Shown: positions 57,875-64,000 of the stretch, piece by piece
Layout: each line of letters begins with the position of its first letter
Position numbering within the stretch: the stretch's first letter is position 1
Assembly: GCA_963750165.1 (NCBI GenBank)
Contig: CAVVPN010000004.1
Span: forward strand, 1,120,001 to 1,184,000
DNA length: 64,000 nt
Source of the DNA: an uncultured Gemmataceae bacterium
GTDB taxonomy: Bacteria > Planctomycetota > Planctomycetia > Gemmatales > Gemmataceae
Direction: 5' to 3'
Position numbers and translations under genes: made by a program
The notes under the pieces: model-generated
Database searches by the model: none
What the model saw: only the letters and a program-made list of their open reading frames with translations
What the model was told of the DNA's origin: nothing

Positions 57875-58627
57875 TTACTCTTTTCCGAGCAACAAATCCA
57901 CTATCCAGCAGCCGCGGACGTGAGGCCCTGAGCCGCGACAGTGGGCAAGCATTTCGGCATTTGCACACCCCGCCTCCTCCAGCGCGTCAGCCAAGATCGG
58001 GAGTAGGCCGAACCCCCGCTCCTCGTAGATTCTCTCGGCCATCGCGACCACCGTGGGCGTACGCCAACCCGGATCGAAGTTCGGCGGGCGGAACGGGTTG
58101 CCGAAGATGTCGTGCAACATTAGTAACTGCTGGCCTATCTCGTCGTCCGAACCGGGAACGCCCGCCGCGACAGCGACCATCTCCGCGGCCCAACCCCCGA
58201 CCAGGTATCTGACTCTGGCCCCCAGTTGTTCGGGCTGGGCGAGCTTCGCTGCCAGTTCCAGACCGGCGTTCGTCAGCGGGTCGGGCGGTGGGCGAGGCAG
58301 GAAGTCGGGAGGTGGGCCATATTGGTCCATCTCCGCTGAAAGCTCGTAGAGTGTCGGCAGGGGGGTGACCGCAAGCGGGCCACCTGCCGCGTCGGCCGCG
58401 GCCTCGGCGAGATCAACCGTGCGGCGGCACAGGTTGCTGGGCAGCAGGTGGGCGACGCGGCGGGCGCACGCGACCTCGAACAGATAGACCTTGCGGTCCG
58501 TGAGCCAGGCGCAGCCATCGAGCACAAGACCTTGCAGACCACTGCCAAGGGCGTACGAATCCTTGCAGGTGAGCCACACCTCCTCGGTGAACCACTCAGC
58601 GTAACGGCGCGGCCTTTTCCTCGCCAT
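57875..58627 (-). CDS. 'HCR..GPHVRGCW' family protein
   Basis: DIFGNPFRP, LPILADALEEAGC, HCRGSGPHVRGCWIVDLLLGKE. Confidence 0.85.
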   Translation of the reverse strand: MARKRPRRYAEWFTEEVWLTCKDSYALGSGLQGLVLDGCAWLTDRKVYLFEVACARRVAHLLPSNLCRRTVDLAEAAADAAGGPLAVTPLPTLYELSAEMDQYGPPPDFLPRPPPDPLTNAGLELAAKLAQPEQLGARVRYLVGGWAAEMVAVAAGVPGSDDEIGQQLLMLHDIFGNPFRPPNFDPGWRTPTVVAMAERIYEERGFGLLPILADALEEAGCANAEMLAHCRGSGPHVRGCWIVDLLLGKE

Positions 58628-58646
58628 CCGATACGCCCTCCGCGTG

Positions 58647-58735
58647 TCCGAACACCCCAGCTCACGTGCGGGCCACTCGACTCAAGTTCTTACTACAGCC
58701 TCAGTTGGCCCGTCATGTGCAGCGGCTGGTTCGAG
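58647..58735 (-). repeat. attC site (family A)
   Basis: CTCACGTGCGGGCC...GGCCCGTCATGTGCAG. Confidence 0.9.
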
Positions 58736-58844
58736 CTGGTCCTCTCTTACTTTCGACCCTTCTTCCCTCACACCGCTGGAGCCTGCAAGGGCACTCCCGC
58801 GCCTCCGCCAAGGTGACTCACCCGCCGCGGGTCGCTCCCCTTAT

Positions 58845-59318
58845 CTACTCGTCGCCTGGATCACCCGGCGACGCCGAACGCTCTTTCTCGCCTCGCGCCG
58901 CGAAAACCAGCGCCCTGGCGCCCCCGGCTAGCAACGCCTTGAAGTAGCTGGCCGTACTCAATTCCGGGCAACCCAGCACCGCCTGGCAGAACTCCTGCGG
59001 CGGGGCGTAGCCGTGCGCGTTCATGTAGTGGGCGACCAGCTCCGGGCAGACGTACACGACCCCGTCGCCGGGGAGGAACAGGTTCCTCCGGCCGCTGCGC
59101 CCGGGCTCGTAATGGCACAACTGGCAGCCGTGGGTGCCGAGGAGCAGGAACGGCTCCCAGGGTGACTGTAGCAACTCCACCAGCCGGCGGTAGATGAGGA
59201 CGTCAACCGGCCCCGTGGCGAAGGCGTGCCCGCGCTCCAGCCAGCCGACCGCACGCAGGAAGCTGGCGAACTCCTGCCCGAAATACGTACATGGGGACAG
59301 GTCGGCGAACCACGCCAT
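58845..59318 (-). CDS. Cassette hypothetical protein
   Basis: DLSPC.Y, AVGWL, G.H.C.LC, P.L..HY...H.Y.PP.EF..AV. Confidence 0.75.
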   Translation of the reverse strand: MAWFADLSPCTYFGQEFASFLRAVGWLERGHAFATGPVDVLIYRRLVELLQSPWEPFLLLGTHGCQLCHYEPGRSGRRNLFLPGDGVVYVCPELVAHYMNAHGYAPPQEFCQAVLGCPELSTASYFKALLAGGARALVFAARGEKERSASPGDPGDE

Positions 59319-59333
59319 AGCCCCTCCGGCGCG

Positions 59334-59430
59334 ATCGAACGGACCAGTTCACCTGCTGCGGCGGCAGGCGAGACGTCGAACCCTGATTTCACGTAGTGCC
59401 GCCGCAGTCAGGTGCAACATTTGGTTCGGC
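59334..59430 (-). repeat. attC site
   Basis: TTCACCTGCTGCGGCGGCA...TGCCGCCGCAGTCAGGTGCAA. Confidence 0.87.
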
Positions 59431-59814
59431 GATATCGCAAGTTCCGACAGGCCGCAATTTTCTGATGTCCGGAAGCAATGTCGCGTCACCCAGGCCATCT
59501 TGCGACCAAACTTCCAACCCGGCAAGCAGACCGCTGCGCTCGAACACAAATACCCCAAATAGCTCACCGCCAGCGGCCCGCCATTCGTAGTCGGCCAAAA
59601 TGCTGATGGCATTTCCGCGAGCGGGAACAACACCTTCGATCGCGAAGTCGATGCTGGCACAACCGCAGTAGCAGCGGGAGGCGATGCGTGCTTGATCAAG
59701 CTGGGGCAGGTAACGCGACGCCTGCGCACTGCCATGCTGCAACAACCATCGTACGAGTGTCACTTCGGCAACAGTCAGCGGCCGGTCCTCCGGAATTGCT
59801 GTCGTAGTCGTCAT
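59389..59814 (-). CDS. Cassette hypothetical protein (reads into attC)
   Basis: RPLT..E, C.CGCASIDF, L..LEVWS. Confidence 0.75.
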   Translation of the reverse strand: MTTTTAIPEDRPLTVAEVTLVRWLLQHGSAQASRYLPQLDQARIASRCYCGCASIDFAIEGVVPARGNAISILADYEWRAAGGELFGVFVFERSGLLAGLEVWSQDGLGDATLLPDIRKLRPVGTCDIAEPNVAPDCGGTT

Positions 59815-59901
59815 GCACCCTCGCCGCCGAACGACTCAGCTCCCACGAAAATGTATTTCTGGGACTGTGTCCACCGAGGGGACCGTCGTGGGTGGTCCTG
59901 C

Positions 59902-61149
59902 TCAGGCCGCCGGTTCCGCCACGGTCACCTCATAGCCCATTCTCTGCAGCCGCCGCACCAGCCTCTCCTTCAGCCGGTCCTTGTCTGCCGTCCGGTAATA
60001 GTCCGGCCCCTCTTCCTGGTACGGCCGGCGCTTGCTCAGTAGTGTGTAGGCCATCCGCAAGATCCGGTGCCCCACCGCCAGGCAGGCCCGCTTGTCCCCG
60101 CGGCGTGCCTTGATCCGATGGTACGTCGCCCGCAGACTGCTCTCCTTGGTGTTCGCCGCTCCCCGCGCCGCCTCCACCAGCGCCTGCCGCAGCCAGCGGT
60201 TGCCCTTGCGCGTCTTGCCGCTCTTCTGCTTGCCAGCGCTCTCGTGGTTGCCTGGACACATCCCCGCCCACGACGCCAACTGCCCCTCCGATTGAAAGCG
60301 GCTCATGTCCAGGCCGACCTCCGCCACGATCACCTGCGCCGTCCGCTGGTTCACCCCGGGAATCTGGTCCAACAGCGCTAGCGCCTGCGCGAACGGGAGG
60401 CACACCTCGGCGATCTTCGCATCCAAGCGGACGATGGCGTCGTCCAGGTCGCTCACCTTCTGTAATTGCTCCCGCAGCAACCAGCGCTGCGTCGCGCTCA
60501 TCACCCCGCGCAGCGCTTCCTCCAATTCCGGGATCTTCGCACGCAGCTGGCCCCGCGCCAGGTTGGCCAGTACGGCGGGGCTGTCCACGCCCTCGGCCAG
60601 GCTGCGTAACATGTCTCGGCCACTGGCTCCCAGTACGTCGCTGGCCACGCCGGCCAACTTGATGTTGCAGTTCTCCAGCAACTTCTGGATACGGTTGCTC
60701 TCGTCGGCGCGCTGGCGGATCACTTGCGTGCGGTAGCGCGTCAAGTCCCGCAGTTCCCGGATTTCCTTGGGGGGCACGAAACTACTGCGCAACAGGCCCA
60801 CACGCAACAGGGTGGCGAGCCACTCGGCATCCTTGACATCGGTCTTGCGTCCGGGCACGTTCTTGACGTGCTGGGCGTTGACCAGGACGACCTCAATGCC
60901 GGCCTGCTCCAGGATGTTGAACACCGGCTTCCAATACACGCCGGTGCTCTCGATGGCCACGTGCCGACAGTCCGCCTGCACCAACCACTGCGCCAACTCC
61001 TGCAAGGCGCTGGTCATGGTCCGAAAGACCCGGCGCTCGACGAGCGCATCGCCCGAGGCACCCGACTTCAAGAGGCAGGCGGTCAGGGTCTTCTTGTGGA
61101 CATCAATGCCGCAGCAAATGGTCAGCACGACAGGGAGCAGCGCGTCCAT
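59902..61149 (-). CDS. IS110-family DEDD recombinase/transposase
   Basis: GIDVHK, IESTGVYW, GRKTDVKDA, IPGV, HESAG (catalytic Ser) and GNRWLR motifs; frame intact. Confidence 0.95.
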   Translation of the reverse strand: MDALLPVVLTICCGIDVHKKTLTACLLKSGASGDALVERRVFRTMTSALQELAQWLVQADCRHVAIESTGVYWKPVFNILEQAGIEVVLVNAQHVKNVPGRKTDVKDAEWLATLLRVGLLRSSFVPPKEIRELRDLTRYRTQVIRQRADESNRIQKLLENCNIKLAGVASDVLGASGRDMLRSLAEGVDSPAVLANLARGQLRAKIPELEEALRGVMSATQRWLLREQLQKVSDLDDAIVRLDAKIAEVCLPFAQALALLDQIPGVNQRTAQVIVAEVGLDMSRFQSEGQLASWAGMCPGNHESAGKQKSGKTRKGNRWLRQALVEAARGAANTKESSLRATYHRIKARRGDKRACLAVGHRILRMAYTLLSKRRPYQEEGPDYYRTADKDRLKERLVRRLQRMGYEVTVAEPAA

Positions 61150-61151
61150 CG

Positions 61152-61330
61152 GAGTTCTCCAGACGCCCAGGGAGCATGCAGACGCCGGCGGTGGTGGAGT
61201 CTCCCACACGGGCATATGGGCGCTGCGCCCAAATCAGGGTGCCTCGCGGCGTCCGGGTCCAACTCTGCGTCGGGCACGATGCACCAGCTAAGTCACGACC
61301 ACAGCACGTCCCCAGACGCCCTCTATCCTA
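61152..61330 (-). ncRNA. Putative bridge RNA of the IS110 element (ends approximate)
   Basis: Four segments match target-left (8/9), target-right (12/13), donor-right (7/7) and donor-left (10/10), each including the CT core. Confidence 0.75.
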
Positions 61331-61719
61331 GCTCGCCTCCTTTTCATCGATCAGGGGGAAATTGGTTTCATGGAGAACTCTGCGGCGGGCCACTCGGCTC
61401 AATGCTATCCGATTGACCTCATATGGCCCGTCCGCAGCAGCACCTGGTTCGGTTTGTTTTTTCTCTTGGCCTCAATCTCTCTTTGCTGGACGCCGTCTGC
61501 GTTTCAGACTCCAACTCCGCTTCGGCCAGCGCTGACTCCAGTCTGACCTGCTGCTCCCCCAGAACCCAACCACTCACCGCCGCCCAACCTCTGAATCGCC
61601 AACTTGCTCACAACCCGGCACCCCTCCGGGCACGAACCCCAACGCTCCCCGAATGCGCCAAGCCAGCGCTGCCGCACGGGAGCACCCCTCACCCTGCCGA
61701 AGCGCCACCGCGGCCGGGG

Positions 61720-61984
61720 TCAGCTGCACTTGATGGTTCGGCCCGCCTTCCGTTGGGCCGCCTTGTGCTCCTGCGCACGCTCCTTTCGTTCGGCCAGGTC
61801 TCGGAGCCGTTTGGCACGCCGCCGCAGCCACCGCGGATCGTCGGCGGGGTCGGAGTAACCGGAGCGGCGATCCAATCGGTCAGCCCAGGCGTGCAATTCC
61901 TCGGCGGGGTGCGCGTCCATTCCCGCAAACCCACCGAACCGAGGTCGGAGAACGACGATCCGTCCCCGAAACAGTTTCGCCATT
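61720..61984 (-). CDS. Small basic cassette protein
   Basis: AGGAGG RBS; MAKLFRGR...DPADDPRWL..RA; ends in a partial attC arm (61715-61742). Confidence 0.55.
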
Positions 61985-62002
61985 GCATGCCCCTCCTGTG
62001 CA

Positions 62003-62101
62003 TCCGAACGATAAGGATAAGCTGCCGGGGCCGCCTGCAATACCTAGATACCGCGCGAAACCAGGATGGCGGCCCCGGTCAGCTTCATCCGTTGGTTCGC
62101 C
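62003..62101 (-). repeat. attC site (duplicate of 46499)
   Basis: Same sequence as 46499-46597 after the first base. Confidence 0.87.
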
Positions 62102-62132
62102 GACGGCCCTCTCGCACCCGCCGCCGCGCCGC

Positions 62133-62531
62133 TCATTTTCGCTTCTTCAAGGATGCGCAATAGCTGTCATACGCGGTTCGAACATCAGAATCCGACAAAG
62201 TCACCGTTGCCGACTGGAGGGGCTCAGTGCCCGTTTTTTTGAGCCATTTCAGACACTTGTCAACATTGCTAAACAAGCCACCCTTCCCCCCAAGAGCCTT
62301 CCTTACTGCGCGCGACCGATTACGAGCCAAAAGATATCGGTCATTCTTCACTTGGACGATGCCACAGTCAACGAGCCTGGAGAACGCCCGCGATAGCTCT
62401 CCGGCCGTTGGGATCGCATGGTTGATCACGTCGGCGGCACCAATGATCTCGGCGAGCGTCGCCCCGCCCCTTTTGTGCATGAGCGACGTGGCCGTTAGGA
62501 TCCAGGCATCATTCCAGGCCCATTGCGACAT
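62133..62531 (-). CDS. Cassette hypothetical protein (intact copy)
   Basis: DAWIL, L.EIIGAAD.INHAIPT..EL, L...G. Confidence 0.78.
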   Translation of the reverse strand: MSQWAWNDAWILTATSLMHKRGGATLAEIIGAADVINHAIPTAGELSRAFSRLVDCGIVQVKNDRYLLARNRSRAVRKALGGKGGLFSNVDKCLKWLKKTGTEPLQSATVTLSDSDVRTAYDSYCASLKKRK

Positions 62532-62544
62532 AGTTTGTTTAGTT

Positions 62545-62633
62545 GGCGAACGACAAAGTTCACGTGCGGGCCGCTCGACTTAATGTGTCCGTGTGGACTC
62601 AGTTGGCCCGTCACGTGCAACGCCTGGTTCGGA
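62545..62633 (-). repeat. attC site (family A)
   Basis: Near-identical to 50111. Confidence 0.9.
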
Positions 62634-62728
62634 AATGTTTTCTCCCGGCTTTATCTCTTATTTCGTGGAGCTAATTCAAGCTGCGTCCTCTTTTCCGTTT
62701 CAACTGAGCGGCATGAGGATCCCTTTCT

Positions 62729-63009
62729 TTATTTCGTTCCACGTTTAGTTTTTGCTTCTTCAAGGAGGTATTCTGCTTCAAGGCGATCCGAGGTGGCCAA
62801 AAAAAGCGCACGATCCGCCGCCAACCTCTTTGAATGTAATTTCTTGACCAATCCCTCAAATTCAGTCATGCGGTTGAGGTGCCCCTTGTAGGCTTCTTGC
62901 TCCTTTTGAGGCGAATCCGCAAGAACAAGCTGCGCTTTCAACATCCTCTCGGAAAGATTGTAAAGTCCTTCTCCCGCGCTTCTCGCATCCTTCACCTCAC
63001 GGTACATAG
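62729..63009 (-). pseudogene. 3' part of a cassette gene interrupted by an IS
   Basis: Helical protein-like ORF that abuts the IS end. Confidence 0.55.
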
Positions 63010-64000
63010 CTGAACTGTCGCACGCTTCCATGAACAGACGAACACCGATAGTGTCACGGGGCTGTCGCAGAAAGAGAGAGGGGTTCCTCCTAAGTTTGTG
63101 CATAGGTTCTCAAGCCATGCACTCGCCGGAAGGAGCCCCTCATGTGGCTGATGATAGCTTCTCTCCAGCCCATCGTCCAAGCCCTCGCCCCGGCCTTCAC
63201 CCTGCCCTCGTTCCACACCCACTGCCAACTCGTGCTCGGCTGGGTGATGTGCCTGGGCCAGCACCGCCTCTGTCGCGTCGCCGACACCGCCCAACCCCAA
63301 GACTTGCGGGACCATTCCCGGCGCCACGGCCTGGACACCACCTACAACTTCTTTGCGCGCTCCGCCTGGACCGTGACCGGGTTGGCCTACCACGTCGCCG
63401 TCCTCATCCTGACGCGCCTCCACCTGGGCGGCACCATCACGCTGTTGGTGGACGACACCCTGGCCCACAAGCGCGGCAAGCACGTCTGGGGCCTCGGCTG
63501 GTTCCGCGATGCCGTCGCCTCGACCCGCAAACGCACCGCCACGGCCGCGGGGCACAACTGGGTGGTCGTCGCCGTCGCCGTCTGCCTGCCCTTCGCGAAC
63601 GCCCCGATCCTGGCGTTGCCCTTGCTGGCCCGGTTGCACCGGCCCGGCCAGGCGCAGCCGTCCTGCCCACTGCTGGCGCGCGCGCTGCTCGCCGAAGTGC
63701 TGGCCTGGTTCCCCGGCCGGCGCTTTACCCTGGTGGCCGACGGCGCTTACGCGGCCCAAGCGCTGCTGGCGGACCTGGACGAGCGCGTGACCTTCGTCGG
63801 CCGGTTGCGCGGCGACGCGGCCGTGTACGACCCGCGTCTGCCTCAGGCCAAGCCCGGCCGGCGCGGCCGCAAGGCGCAGAAGGGGCCGCGTCTGCCCAAC
63901 CCCAAAGCAGCCGCCGCCAAGGCCGACCGTAAGCGCGTGGCCACCGGGGACTGGGTGTGGCAGGCGGTGACGGTGACCGTCTACGGGGAGCAGCGCGTCC
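63010..64000 (+). mobile_element. IS701-like IS, copy 2 (CDS from 63142; cut by the window end)
   Basis: Near-identical reverse complement of the right part of 34504-36017; preceded by ATAG (reverse complement of CTAT). Confidence 0.88.

What the first reader, a model, noticed from the sequence alone, without database searches (positions are those of the whole stretch)
61152..61294. Unusual guide order and end architecture in this IS110 element
Seen: with CT as the core, the segments run target-left, target-right, donor-right, donor-left. The element is transcribed antisense to the CT-core strand. It combines subterminal IRs (CCACGAAA/CCATGAAA) with a long upstream non-coding end and only ~60 bp downstream. 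The last donor guide overlaps the transposase RBS (GGAGA). Established: IS621 runs LTG-RTG-LDG-RDG, and subterminal IRs usually go with a long downstream end in IS1111. Inference: a distinct bridge-RNA topology, possibly with translational autoregulation.
Basis: partly seen in the sequence, partly recalled or inferred. Interest (0 to 1): 0.7.

Follow-up and report, generated by a model that had tools for sequence, protein, structure and literature searches.

The report
Bridge RNA reading a folded donor
This jumping gene carries a guide RNA of a known kind, but one of its guides appears to recognise the element's own end only after that DNA strand folds back on itself into a hairpin, which would be a new way for these RNA-guided recombinases to grip their cargo.

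Summary
An intact IS110-group element (59842-61377; three copies, all in integron attC sites). Loop order is ordinary (target, then donor), and the reversed polarity is known from IS1111 and ISPpu9. The real oddity: the donor loop's 5' guide (61231-61239) does not match the element end next to the core. It copies, in the same sense, a site about 25 nt inside the left end (61350-61356), behind a DNA hairpin and beside an internal inverted repeat. This covaries in 80 elements (5.5 vs 3.8 of 7; sister pairs 20:1) and in 14 held-out plasmid elements. Best reading (0.62): the donor is one strand folded into hairpin-bubble-stem, suiting single-strand circles. Against: the window's hairpin is weak, a sister-group test was inconclusive, and mutating ISPpu9's palindrome still gave circles. 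Not found in ten literature searches; figures unseen. Earlier scan notes on other genomes report reversed or mixed guide layouts; their listings do not mention a fold-back.

The parts
59840..59841 (+). CT core, downstream (right-end) junction
   Evidence: three copies versus empty attC sites
59842..59846 (+). right donor arm (5 nt), read by the donor loop's 3' guide
   Evidence: exact complement of 61203-61207; own-versus-swapped sister pairs 24:0 (this match was used in parsing)
59847..59852 (+). right-end half of the conserved hexamer inverted repeat
59902..61149 (-). IS110-family recombinase, 415 aa; D16, E67, D104, D107, S304 invariant in 30 aligned proteins
   Evidence: Pfam PF01548 + PF02371; alignment; IS621 is the top solved relative by sequence and fold
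61161..61173 (-). 3' arm of the closing helix of the RNA, ending next to the RBS
   Evidence: single-sequence fold; similar arms seen by eye in homologs; not recovered in the alignment consensus
61201..61207 (-). donor loop 3' guide (RDG): core + right donor
61231..61239 (-). donor loop 5' guide (LDG position); its first 7 nt equal 61356-61350 in the same sense
61261..61269 (-). target loop 3' guide (RTG, 7 nt) plus 2-nt handshake that equals the first two bases of the left end
   Evidence: handshake equality 76 of 80 (used in parsing)
61286..61294 (-). target loop 5' guide (LTG, 7 nt + core)
   Evidence: 8 of 9 to each of the three occupied sites; covaries with the flank, 2.61 vs 1.80 of 7, n=71
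61309..61321 (-). 5' arm of the closing helix; probable start of the RNA
   Evidence: fold; inference
61325..61330 (-). -10-like hexamer inside the left end, downstream of the hairpin module
   Evidence: seen in sequence; a TAnnnT occurs within 40 nt in 54 of 80 at scattered offsets; not tested
61340..61347 (-). internal left-end inverted repeat (partner of 59847-59852; 5 of 6 here)
61350..61356 (+). fold-back donor arm: the + strand here is complementary to the donor loop's 5' guide (7 of 7)
61358..61369 (+). left-end DNA hairpin (4-bp stem here; 5-7 bp in 67 of 80 elements)
61370..61377 (+). outer left end next to the core; variable, not matched by the donor loop
   Evidence: 1.60 vs 1.68 of 7
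61378..61379 (+). CT core, upstream (left-end) junction
59827..59839 (+). one part of the interrupted attC-like site
61380..61452 (+). other part of the interrupted attC-like site
   Evidence: integron integrase over the TIGR02249 cut-off about 15 kb beyond the window

Best explanation
An RNA-guided IS110-group insertion sequence aimed at integron attC sites, belonging to a wide clade in which the donor is read as one folded DNA strand. Shown: ends, cores, two-loop RNA, target guides on opposite strands of the target, right donor guide on the CT-core strand, and a donor-loop 5' guide that tracks a site 20-30 nt inside the left end such that it too can pair only with the CT-core strand. Inferred: the CT-core strand folds back at the left-end hairpin, so that the internal site takes the place of the missing bottom strand opposite the outer left end; in the circle junction the hexamer repeats close the other side, giving hairpin - open bubble with the core - short stem. 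The recombinase-RNA complex binds this pre-opened bubble, cuts and exchanges the top strand only (the stand-in bottom strand has no core), helped by the target-loop handshake with the first two left-end bases. The fold would form in a single-stranded copy-out circle or by local extrusion from supercoiled or replicating DNA.
For: Guide versus internal site, same sense: 5.52 vs 3.76 of 7, 0 of 5000 permutations; variable 5 nt alone 3.78 vs 2.30; sister pairs own>swapped 20, own<swapped 1, ties 19 (first run with the window's guide shifted by one base gave 19:2). Held-out plasmid elements n=14: 5.64 vs 4.08, 0 of 20000. 28 elements rescued from the failed parse: 4.21 vs 2.98, 0 of 20000. Canonical partner: no signal (1.60 vs 1.68). 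Geometry: core-to-stem 6-8 nt in 73 of 80, stem-to-repeat 9-12 nt in 70 of 80; 76 different hairpin sequences among 80; first mismatch outside the stem is G.T on the CT-core strand in 50 of 80 against 11 on the other strand. Independent copies stay identical through the hairpin to the core, so the module is inside the element. In ISPpu9 the same end plan lies upstream of the mapped transcription start, so it is a DNA feature. IS621 and CazIS110-1 excise a single top strand, and top-strand ssDNA circles integrate (preprints).
Against: No experiment here. Whole-junction folding energy does not prefer the CT-core strand (37 vs 39 of 80) and only 26 of 80 hairpins beat 95% of their shuffles. The window's own hairpin is weak (4 bp; junction -2.5 kcal/mol, not folding as modelled). 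In ten elements of a sister group (31-34% identity) the end plan is visible but my automatic test was not significant (4.9 vs 4.6, 1913 of 20000; one mis-parsed). Mutating the ISPpu9 left-end palindrome still gave correct minicircles by end-point PCR. CazIS110-1 prefers dsDNA donors about 20-fold at one junction. A small excess of guide complement inside the own RNA exists (5.36 vs 5.24, 122 of 5000). 17 of 125 non-redundant loci could not be parsed at all.
Confidence: 0.62

Rival explanations
1. The guide does pair with the internal site, but in double-stranded DNA bent or looped by the protein, or as a separate anchoring contact; the hairpin only spaces or helps melting and the donor never folds into a bubble.
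For: ISPpu9 palindrome mutant still circularises; energies do not favour one strand; weak hairpin in the window; target-side stem-loop of ISPpu10 only enhances (44% left when removed).
Against: Pairing polarity requires the strand to reverse direction between the two guides, which the hairpin supplies at a fixed distance; G.T bias 50:11; stems vary in sequence yet stay paired.
Confidence: 0.18
2. The donor is recognised by a half match only (right donor guide plus handshake plus protein-read repeats); the likeness of the 5' guide to the internal site has an RNA-level or historical cause (shared partner in a read-through transcript, duplication, conversion).
For: Half-match excision and insertion are reported for IS621; read-through transcripts feed IS621 excision; slight excess complement of the guide within the own RNA; matches are imperfect (7 of 7 in only 8 of 80).
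Against: Concerted change in 20 of 21 informative sister pairs and in held-out sets needs continuing selection; no third covarying segment of comparable strength was found; module lies upstream of the ISPpu9 start site.
Confidence: 0.13
3. One reading: order LTG-RTG-RDG-LDG with the last guide over the RBS, classical subterminal repeats, and translational autoregulation; possibly true only for this lineage, which has a weak hairpin.
For: 10-11 nt perfect match in all three copies; 9 of 9 in only 1 of 6320 cross pairs; duplex -13.4 kcal/mol against a mean of -7.4; sister pairs 13:6, p=0.08.
Against: 1 of 80 elements; absent from the 89% relative; outside both loops; the window keeps a 7 of 7 match at the clade's internal site.
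Confidence: 0.07

Closest known systems
IS621 / IS622 (ISCro4) bridge recombinase (PMC11208160, PMC11208158, 10.1101/2025.05.14.653916; passages and one section read)
   Same: DEDD plus serine recombinase; upstream two-loop RNA, target loop first; 7+2+5 geometry; core with invariant second T; handshake bases after the 3' guide.
   Different: IS621's left donor guide pairs with the bottom strand beside the core; here that position shows no such match and tracks an internal site on the top strand. Element is inverted relative to the CT strand. Protein 415 aa against 328, 22-24% identity.
ISPpu9 of Pseudomonas putida (PMC12288879: sections 4, 13, 17, first part of 18, supplement part 2; PMC8450116: passages)
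   Same: AG cores on the transposase strand; 43-bp left 'A box' = core, 6 nt, 6-bp hairpin, 11 nt, then a hexamer that is the exact complement of the hexamer 5 nt before the right core (my reading of their tables); promoter inside the left end, no junction promoter; structured 5' UTR damps translation.
   Different: In what I read, the authors noted the palindrome without assigning a role, state that the group lacks inverted repeats and do not map guides. Target is REP. Protein seems by eye to belong to a sister group.
IS1111 group, including attC-targeting ISKpn4 and ISPst6 (PMC11187229 section 6 and passages; preprint passages)
   Same: Guide order relative to the transposase strand (top-strand match first); attC as target.
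   Different: RNA upstream, not downstream; 415 aa against 330-350; repeat is a hexamer placed 5 nt and about 30 nt from the cores, not a long symmetric subterminal repeat.
ISPpu10 target stem-loop (10.64898/2026.03.19.712850; first part and passages)
   Same: A DNA hairpin next to a left arm contributes to recognition.
   Different: There it is on the target, is complementary to the arm and adds to ordinary pairing; here it is on the donor and the guide matches only the folded-back segment.
ISArsp3 (ISfinder name in plasmid annotation, 43% identity)
   Same: Named member of this clade; hairpin, internal repeat and 6 of 7 guide match present (L180).
   Different: No mechanism found described; listed only in a tree table.
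IS200/IS605 ends and integron attC sites (recalled, no call)
   Same: Recombination on folded single strands.
   Different: Read by protein and DNA-DNA guide contacts, different enzymes, no bridge RNA.

Membership tests
IS110 family | RuvC-like DEDD domain plus Tnp domain with conserved serine | tested here: met
IS110 family | Site-specific insertion around a short core shared by both ends | tested here: met
   3 of 3 copies at one position of attC-like repeats; cores AG 64, AC 8, AA 8 of 80 on the transposase strand
IS110 group | Long upstream end holding the RNA, short downstream end | tested here: met
   228 / 60 nt here; medians about 224 / 22 nt in 80
IS621-type bridge RNA | Two internal loops, target loop then donor loop | tested here: met
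   consensus of 80 sequences
IS621-type bridge RNA | Target guides pair with opposite strands around the core | tested here: met
IS621-type bridge RNA | Right donor guide pairs with top strand core + right donor | tested here: met
   (used in parsing)
IS621-type bridge RNA | Left donor guide pairs with the bottom strand beside the core | tested here: not met
   1.60 vs 1.68 of 7; with shifts 2.28 vs 2.37
IS621-type bridge RNA | Promoter formed across the circle junction | tested here: inconclusive
   -10-like box lies inside the left end; no RNA data
IS621-type bridge RNA | RNA is expressed and bound by the recombinase; circle forms | not testable with these tools
   needs small-RNA sequencing and junction PCR
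IS1111 group | Subterminal inverted repeats of 7-17 bp close to both ends | tested here: not met
   core-proximal repeat not conserved; conserved one is a hexamer about 30 nt inside
IS1111 group | RNA downstream of a 330-350 aa transposase | tested here: not met
IS1111 group | Top-strand target match precedes bottom-strand match (transposase orientation) | tested here: met
IS1111 group | Phylogenetic placement among IS1111 transposases | not tested
   the tree held only this clade, no IS1111 references
ISPpu9-like elements | AG cores, left box with hairpin, short right box | tested here: met
ISPpu9-like elements | Antisense and sense small RNAs (Asr9, Ssr9) | not tested
   no RNA data

The most novel reading that the evidence does not exclude
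A large, multi-phylum branch of IS110 bridge recombinases uses a folded single-stranded donor: both donor guides read the same DNA strand, a hairpin supplies a stand-in bottom strand, and the single-stranded copy-out circle is itself the natural insertion substrate, making this an RNA-guided counterpart of attC or IS200/IS605 hairpin recombination and a possible tool for inserting single-stranded DNA.
Probability: 0.45. Interest if true: 0.88.

Novelty: new variant of a known kind. Interest (0 to 1): 0.72.

Why it matters
All bridge-RNA models that I read assume that each loop reads both strands of a duplex next to the core. A natural clade whose left donor guide ignores that position and follows a fold-back site would show a second donor chemistry and bears directly on the open dispute over single- versus double-stranded IS110 circles and top-strand-only transfer. 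It also explains an unassigned feature of ISPpu9 (the left-end palindrome), predicts why donor guides are under-called or donors built too short (14-25 nt) for such orthologs in screens, and gives design rules (about 42 nt of left end, 13 nt of right end) for a 400-aa recombinase family found in Actinomycetota, Chloroflexota, Acidobacteriota, Planctomycetota, Bacillota and Proteobacteria. It is testable with a few compensatory mutations.

Tried and rejected
Rfam: no match in 58000-64000. Single-sequence folding of the upstream end was no better than shuffles (z -0.19) and buries the guides, so structure was taken from the alignment, which recovered both loops but not the long arms or closing helix. 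Left-end/RBS pairing as a clade-wide control of translation: not supported (-7.35 vs -7.15 kcal/mol, 869 of 5000). Strand preference by folding energy: no discrimination. Sister-group guide test: inconclusive, not re-tuned. Last two bases of either 5' guide versus core: no signal in both loops, so this cannot be used as support. Structure prediction (pLDDT 87) and fold search gave IS621 as top match and nothing for the extra helices (about 175-212 and 384-403). ISPpu9's RNA sequence could not be obtained, so its guide was not tested. Earlier-findings searches by sequence and by three further word sets returned nothing. Two supplementary PDF files of PMC11208160 were not searchable, all figures and bioRxiv supplements were unseen; Fig. 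6d / Extended Data Fig. 10c of that paper and Fig. S12 of 10.64898/2026.10.21.760802 could show this clade.

Full report
The element. The flagged stretch is the non-coding region upstream of a 415-aa IS110-family recombinase on the minus strand (61149..59902; PF01548 and PF02371; D16, E67, D104, D107 and S304 invariant in 30 aligned proteins). The genome holds three copies of a 1536-bp element, 99.5-100% identical; one has a one-base deletion that splits the frame. Comparison with empty sites puts CT cores at 59840-59841 and 61378-61379 on the plus strand. All three sit at the same position of an 87-95 bp imperfect palindrome; 16 uninterrupted repeats of this kind were listed in the window, and an integron integrase above the curated cut-off lies about 15 kb beyond it, so these are attC sites (inference from structure and context). 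All three occupied sites have the right arm that the target guide spells; four empty repeats in the window have the same core and arm. The nearest relatives come from planctomycete assemblies; the host was not determined.

The four matches and the 8-bp repeat are in the sequence. To test them I collected 179 loci; 164 had a near-complete gene, 125 remained after removing near-duplicates and short flanks, 95 gave a right-end match, 84 a left end, and 80 had equal cores at both ends. The alignment of these 80 folds into two capped internal loops, target loop first, with about ten unpaired bases on each side. The fourth (61152-61161) lies 3' of both, over the RBS. Its match is complete only in the window's element; the mean equals that of permuted pairs (5.35 vs 5.25 of 9), and the 89%-identical L154 keeps the RBS but not the match. 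It is still a rare event (1 of 6320 cross pairs) and could hide the RBS in transcripts that run in from the cassette array, but this is not a clade trait (869 of 5000). The antisense polarity is shared by the whole set (cores AG, AC, AA on the transposase strand) and equals the order reported for IS1111 seekRNAs and the AG cores of ISPpu9.

What is unusual. The 5' side of the donor loop (61231-61239 here) should complement the first seven bases of the left end. It does not (1.60 vs 1.68 of 7; with shifts 2.28 vs 2.37). The left ends share a plan: core, 6-8 nt, a hairpin of free sequence (5-7 bp stem in 67 of 80; 76 different sequences), 9-12 nt, then a hexamer complementary to the hexamer five bases before the right core. 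Fourteen plasmid elements not used before gave 5.64 vs 4.08, 0 of 20000; 28 of the 45 loci outside the main set, re-parsed with a looser rule and several visibly mis-parsed, gave 4.21 vs 2.98, 0 of 20000; 17 stayed unparsed. In the window the match is 7 of 7 (61350-61356). Independent copies of five other elements stay alike through the hairpin up to and just past the core, so the module is inside the element. The hexamer pair changes together in several lineages (the parse required near-complementarity, so this is weak support).

Mechanism. Same sense as the RNA means the guide can pair only with the CT-core strand, the strand that the right donor guide also binds. In IS621 the two guides of a loop bind opposite strands and run antiparallel around the core. 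For one strand to serve both it must turn back, and the hairpin sits where the turn is needed. The model is therefore a donor made of one strand: hairpin, then an open bubble whose top holds the outer left end, core and right arm and whose bottom is the internal site, closed in the circle by the hexamer stem. The outer left end need not be complementary to anything, as seen; its first two bases are read by the target-loop handshake (76 of 80, partly built into the parse). The stand-in bottom strand has no core, which suggests top-strand-only exchange (inference). The first mismatch outside the stem is G.T on the CT-core strand in 50 of 80 against 11 on the other (relatives are not independent). 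Two preprints report top-strand copy-out, single-stranded circles and integration of top-strand ssDNA for other IS110 elements. The target, by contrast, appears to be read as a duplex: the left target guide matches the true opposite strand.

Against. Folding energies do not choose a strand (37 vs 39), only 26 of 80 hairpins are individually significant, and the window's own is weak. In ten elements of a sister group at 31-34% identity the same end plan is visible but the guide test was not significant (4.9 vs 4.6; 1913 of 20000). ISPpu9, which by my reading of its published end boxes has this plan, with the box upstream of the mapped transcription start, still formed correct circles when its palindrome was mutated, by end-point PCR; deleting the box abolished them, and the authors left a role in efficiency or integration open. 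Nothing here shows expression or pairing.

Relation to known systems. It is a member of the IS110 family and group and works like IS621 at three of four guides; it fails the IS621 test at the left donor guide and the IS1111 tests of repeat and RNA position, while sharing IS1111 polarity and an attC target. Ten library searches and reading of passages or sections of eleven papers (PMC11208160, PMC11208158, PMC11187229 and its preprint, PMC13626964, PMC12288879, PMC8450116, and preprints 2025.10.25.684509, 2026.08.31.748434, 2026.03.19.712850, 2026.08.14.744561, 2025.05.14.653916, 2026.10.21.760802; none read whole) found no description of a same-strand donor guide. Figures, bioRxiv supplements and most subscription papers were not visible, and one survey analysed only 25 nt on each side of the core, which would cut through the internal site. 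Earlier notes of this scan on other genomes mention reversed or mixed layouts and, in one, guides for target and right end only; I saw only their short listings.

Verdict. New variant of a known kind; interest 0.72; fold-back donor 0.62; single-stranded circle as the natural substrate 0.45.

Noticed in passing
window 30836-62600 and G000 C4 to 1199845: A long integron cassette array: 16 uninterrupted attC-like repeats listed in the window, short minus-strand ORFs between them, a full integrase at C4:1198898-1199845 and a partial one at C4:1190003-1190728.
   Followed up: partly
G000 C4:1186330-1187864: Second copy of the element with a one-base deletion in the transposase and six substitutions clustered in about 45 nt.
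   Followed up: partly
G000 C3:527327-528550 (L177): A 53% paralog with the same left-end plan but a different target.
   Followed up: partly
L194:1417-2960 (G000 C3:536916 onward): A 29% IS110 paralog of the sister group with no obvious RNA upstream, followed downstream by a core-hairpin module and RNA-like stretch, perhaps a non-autonomous element like MITEPpu9.
   Followed up: no
ISPpu9 end boxes (PMC12288879 supplement): The last six bases of the A box are the exact complement of the hexamer five bases before the right core, an inverted repeat not remarked on in the parts I read.
   Followed up: partly
L096, L150, L191, L197, L198: A right end followed directly by another left end or element of the same kind (tandem or end-targeted insertions), in line with donor-like half matches.
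   Followed up: no
L003, L004, L010, L062: Relatives whose left flank plus core reads as a ribosome-binding site (AGGAG), so the target is a translation start region.
   Followed up: no
window 63142-64000: Start of another transposase-like ORF (plus strand, open at the window end), not identified by a search.
   Followed up: no
protein residues about 175-212 and 384-403: Extra helices relative to IS621 (variable region and C-terminal tail), conserved in the clade; candidates for hairpin contact, no evidence.
   Followed up: partly
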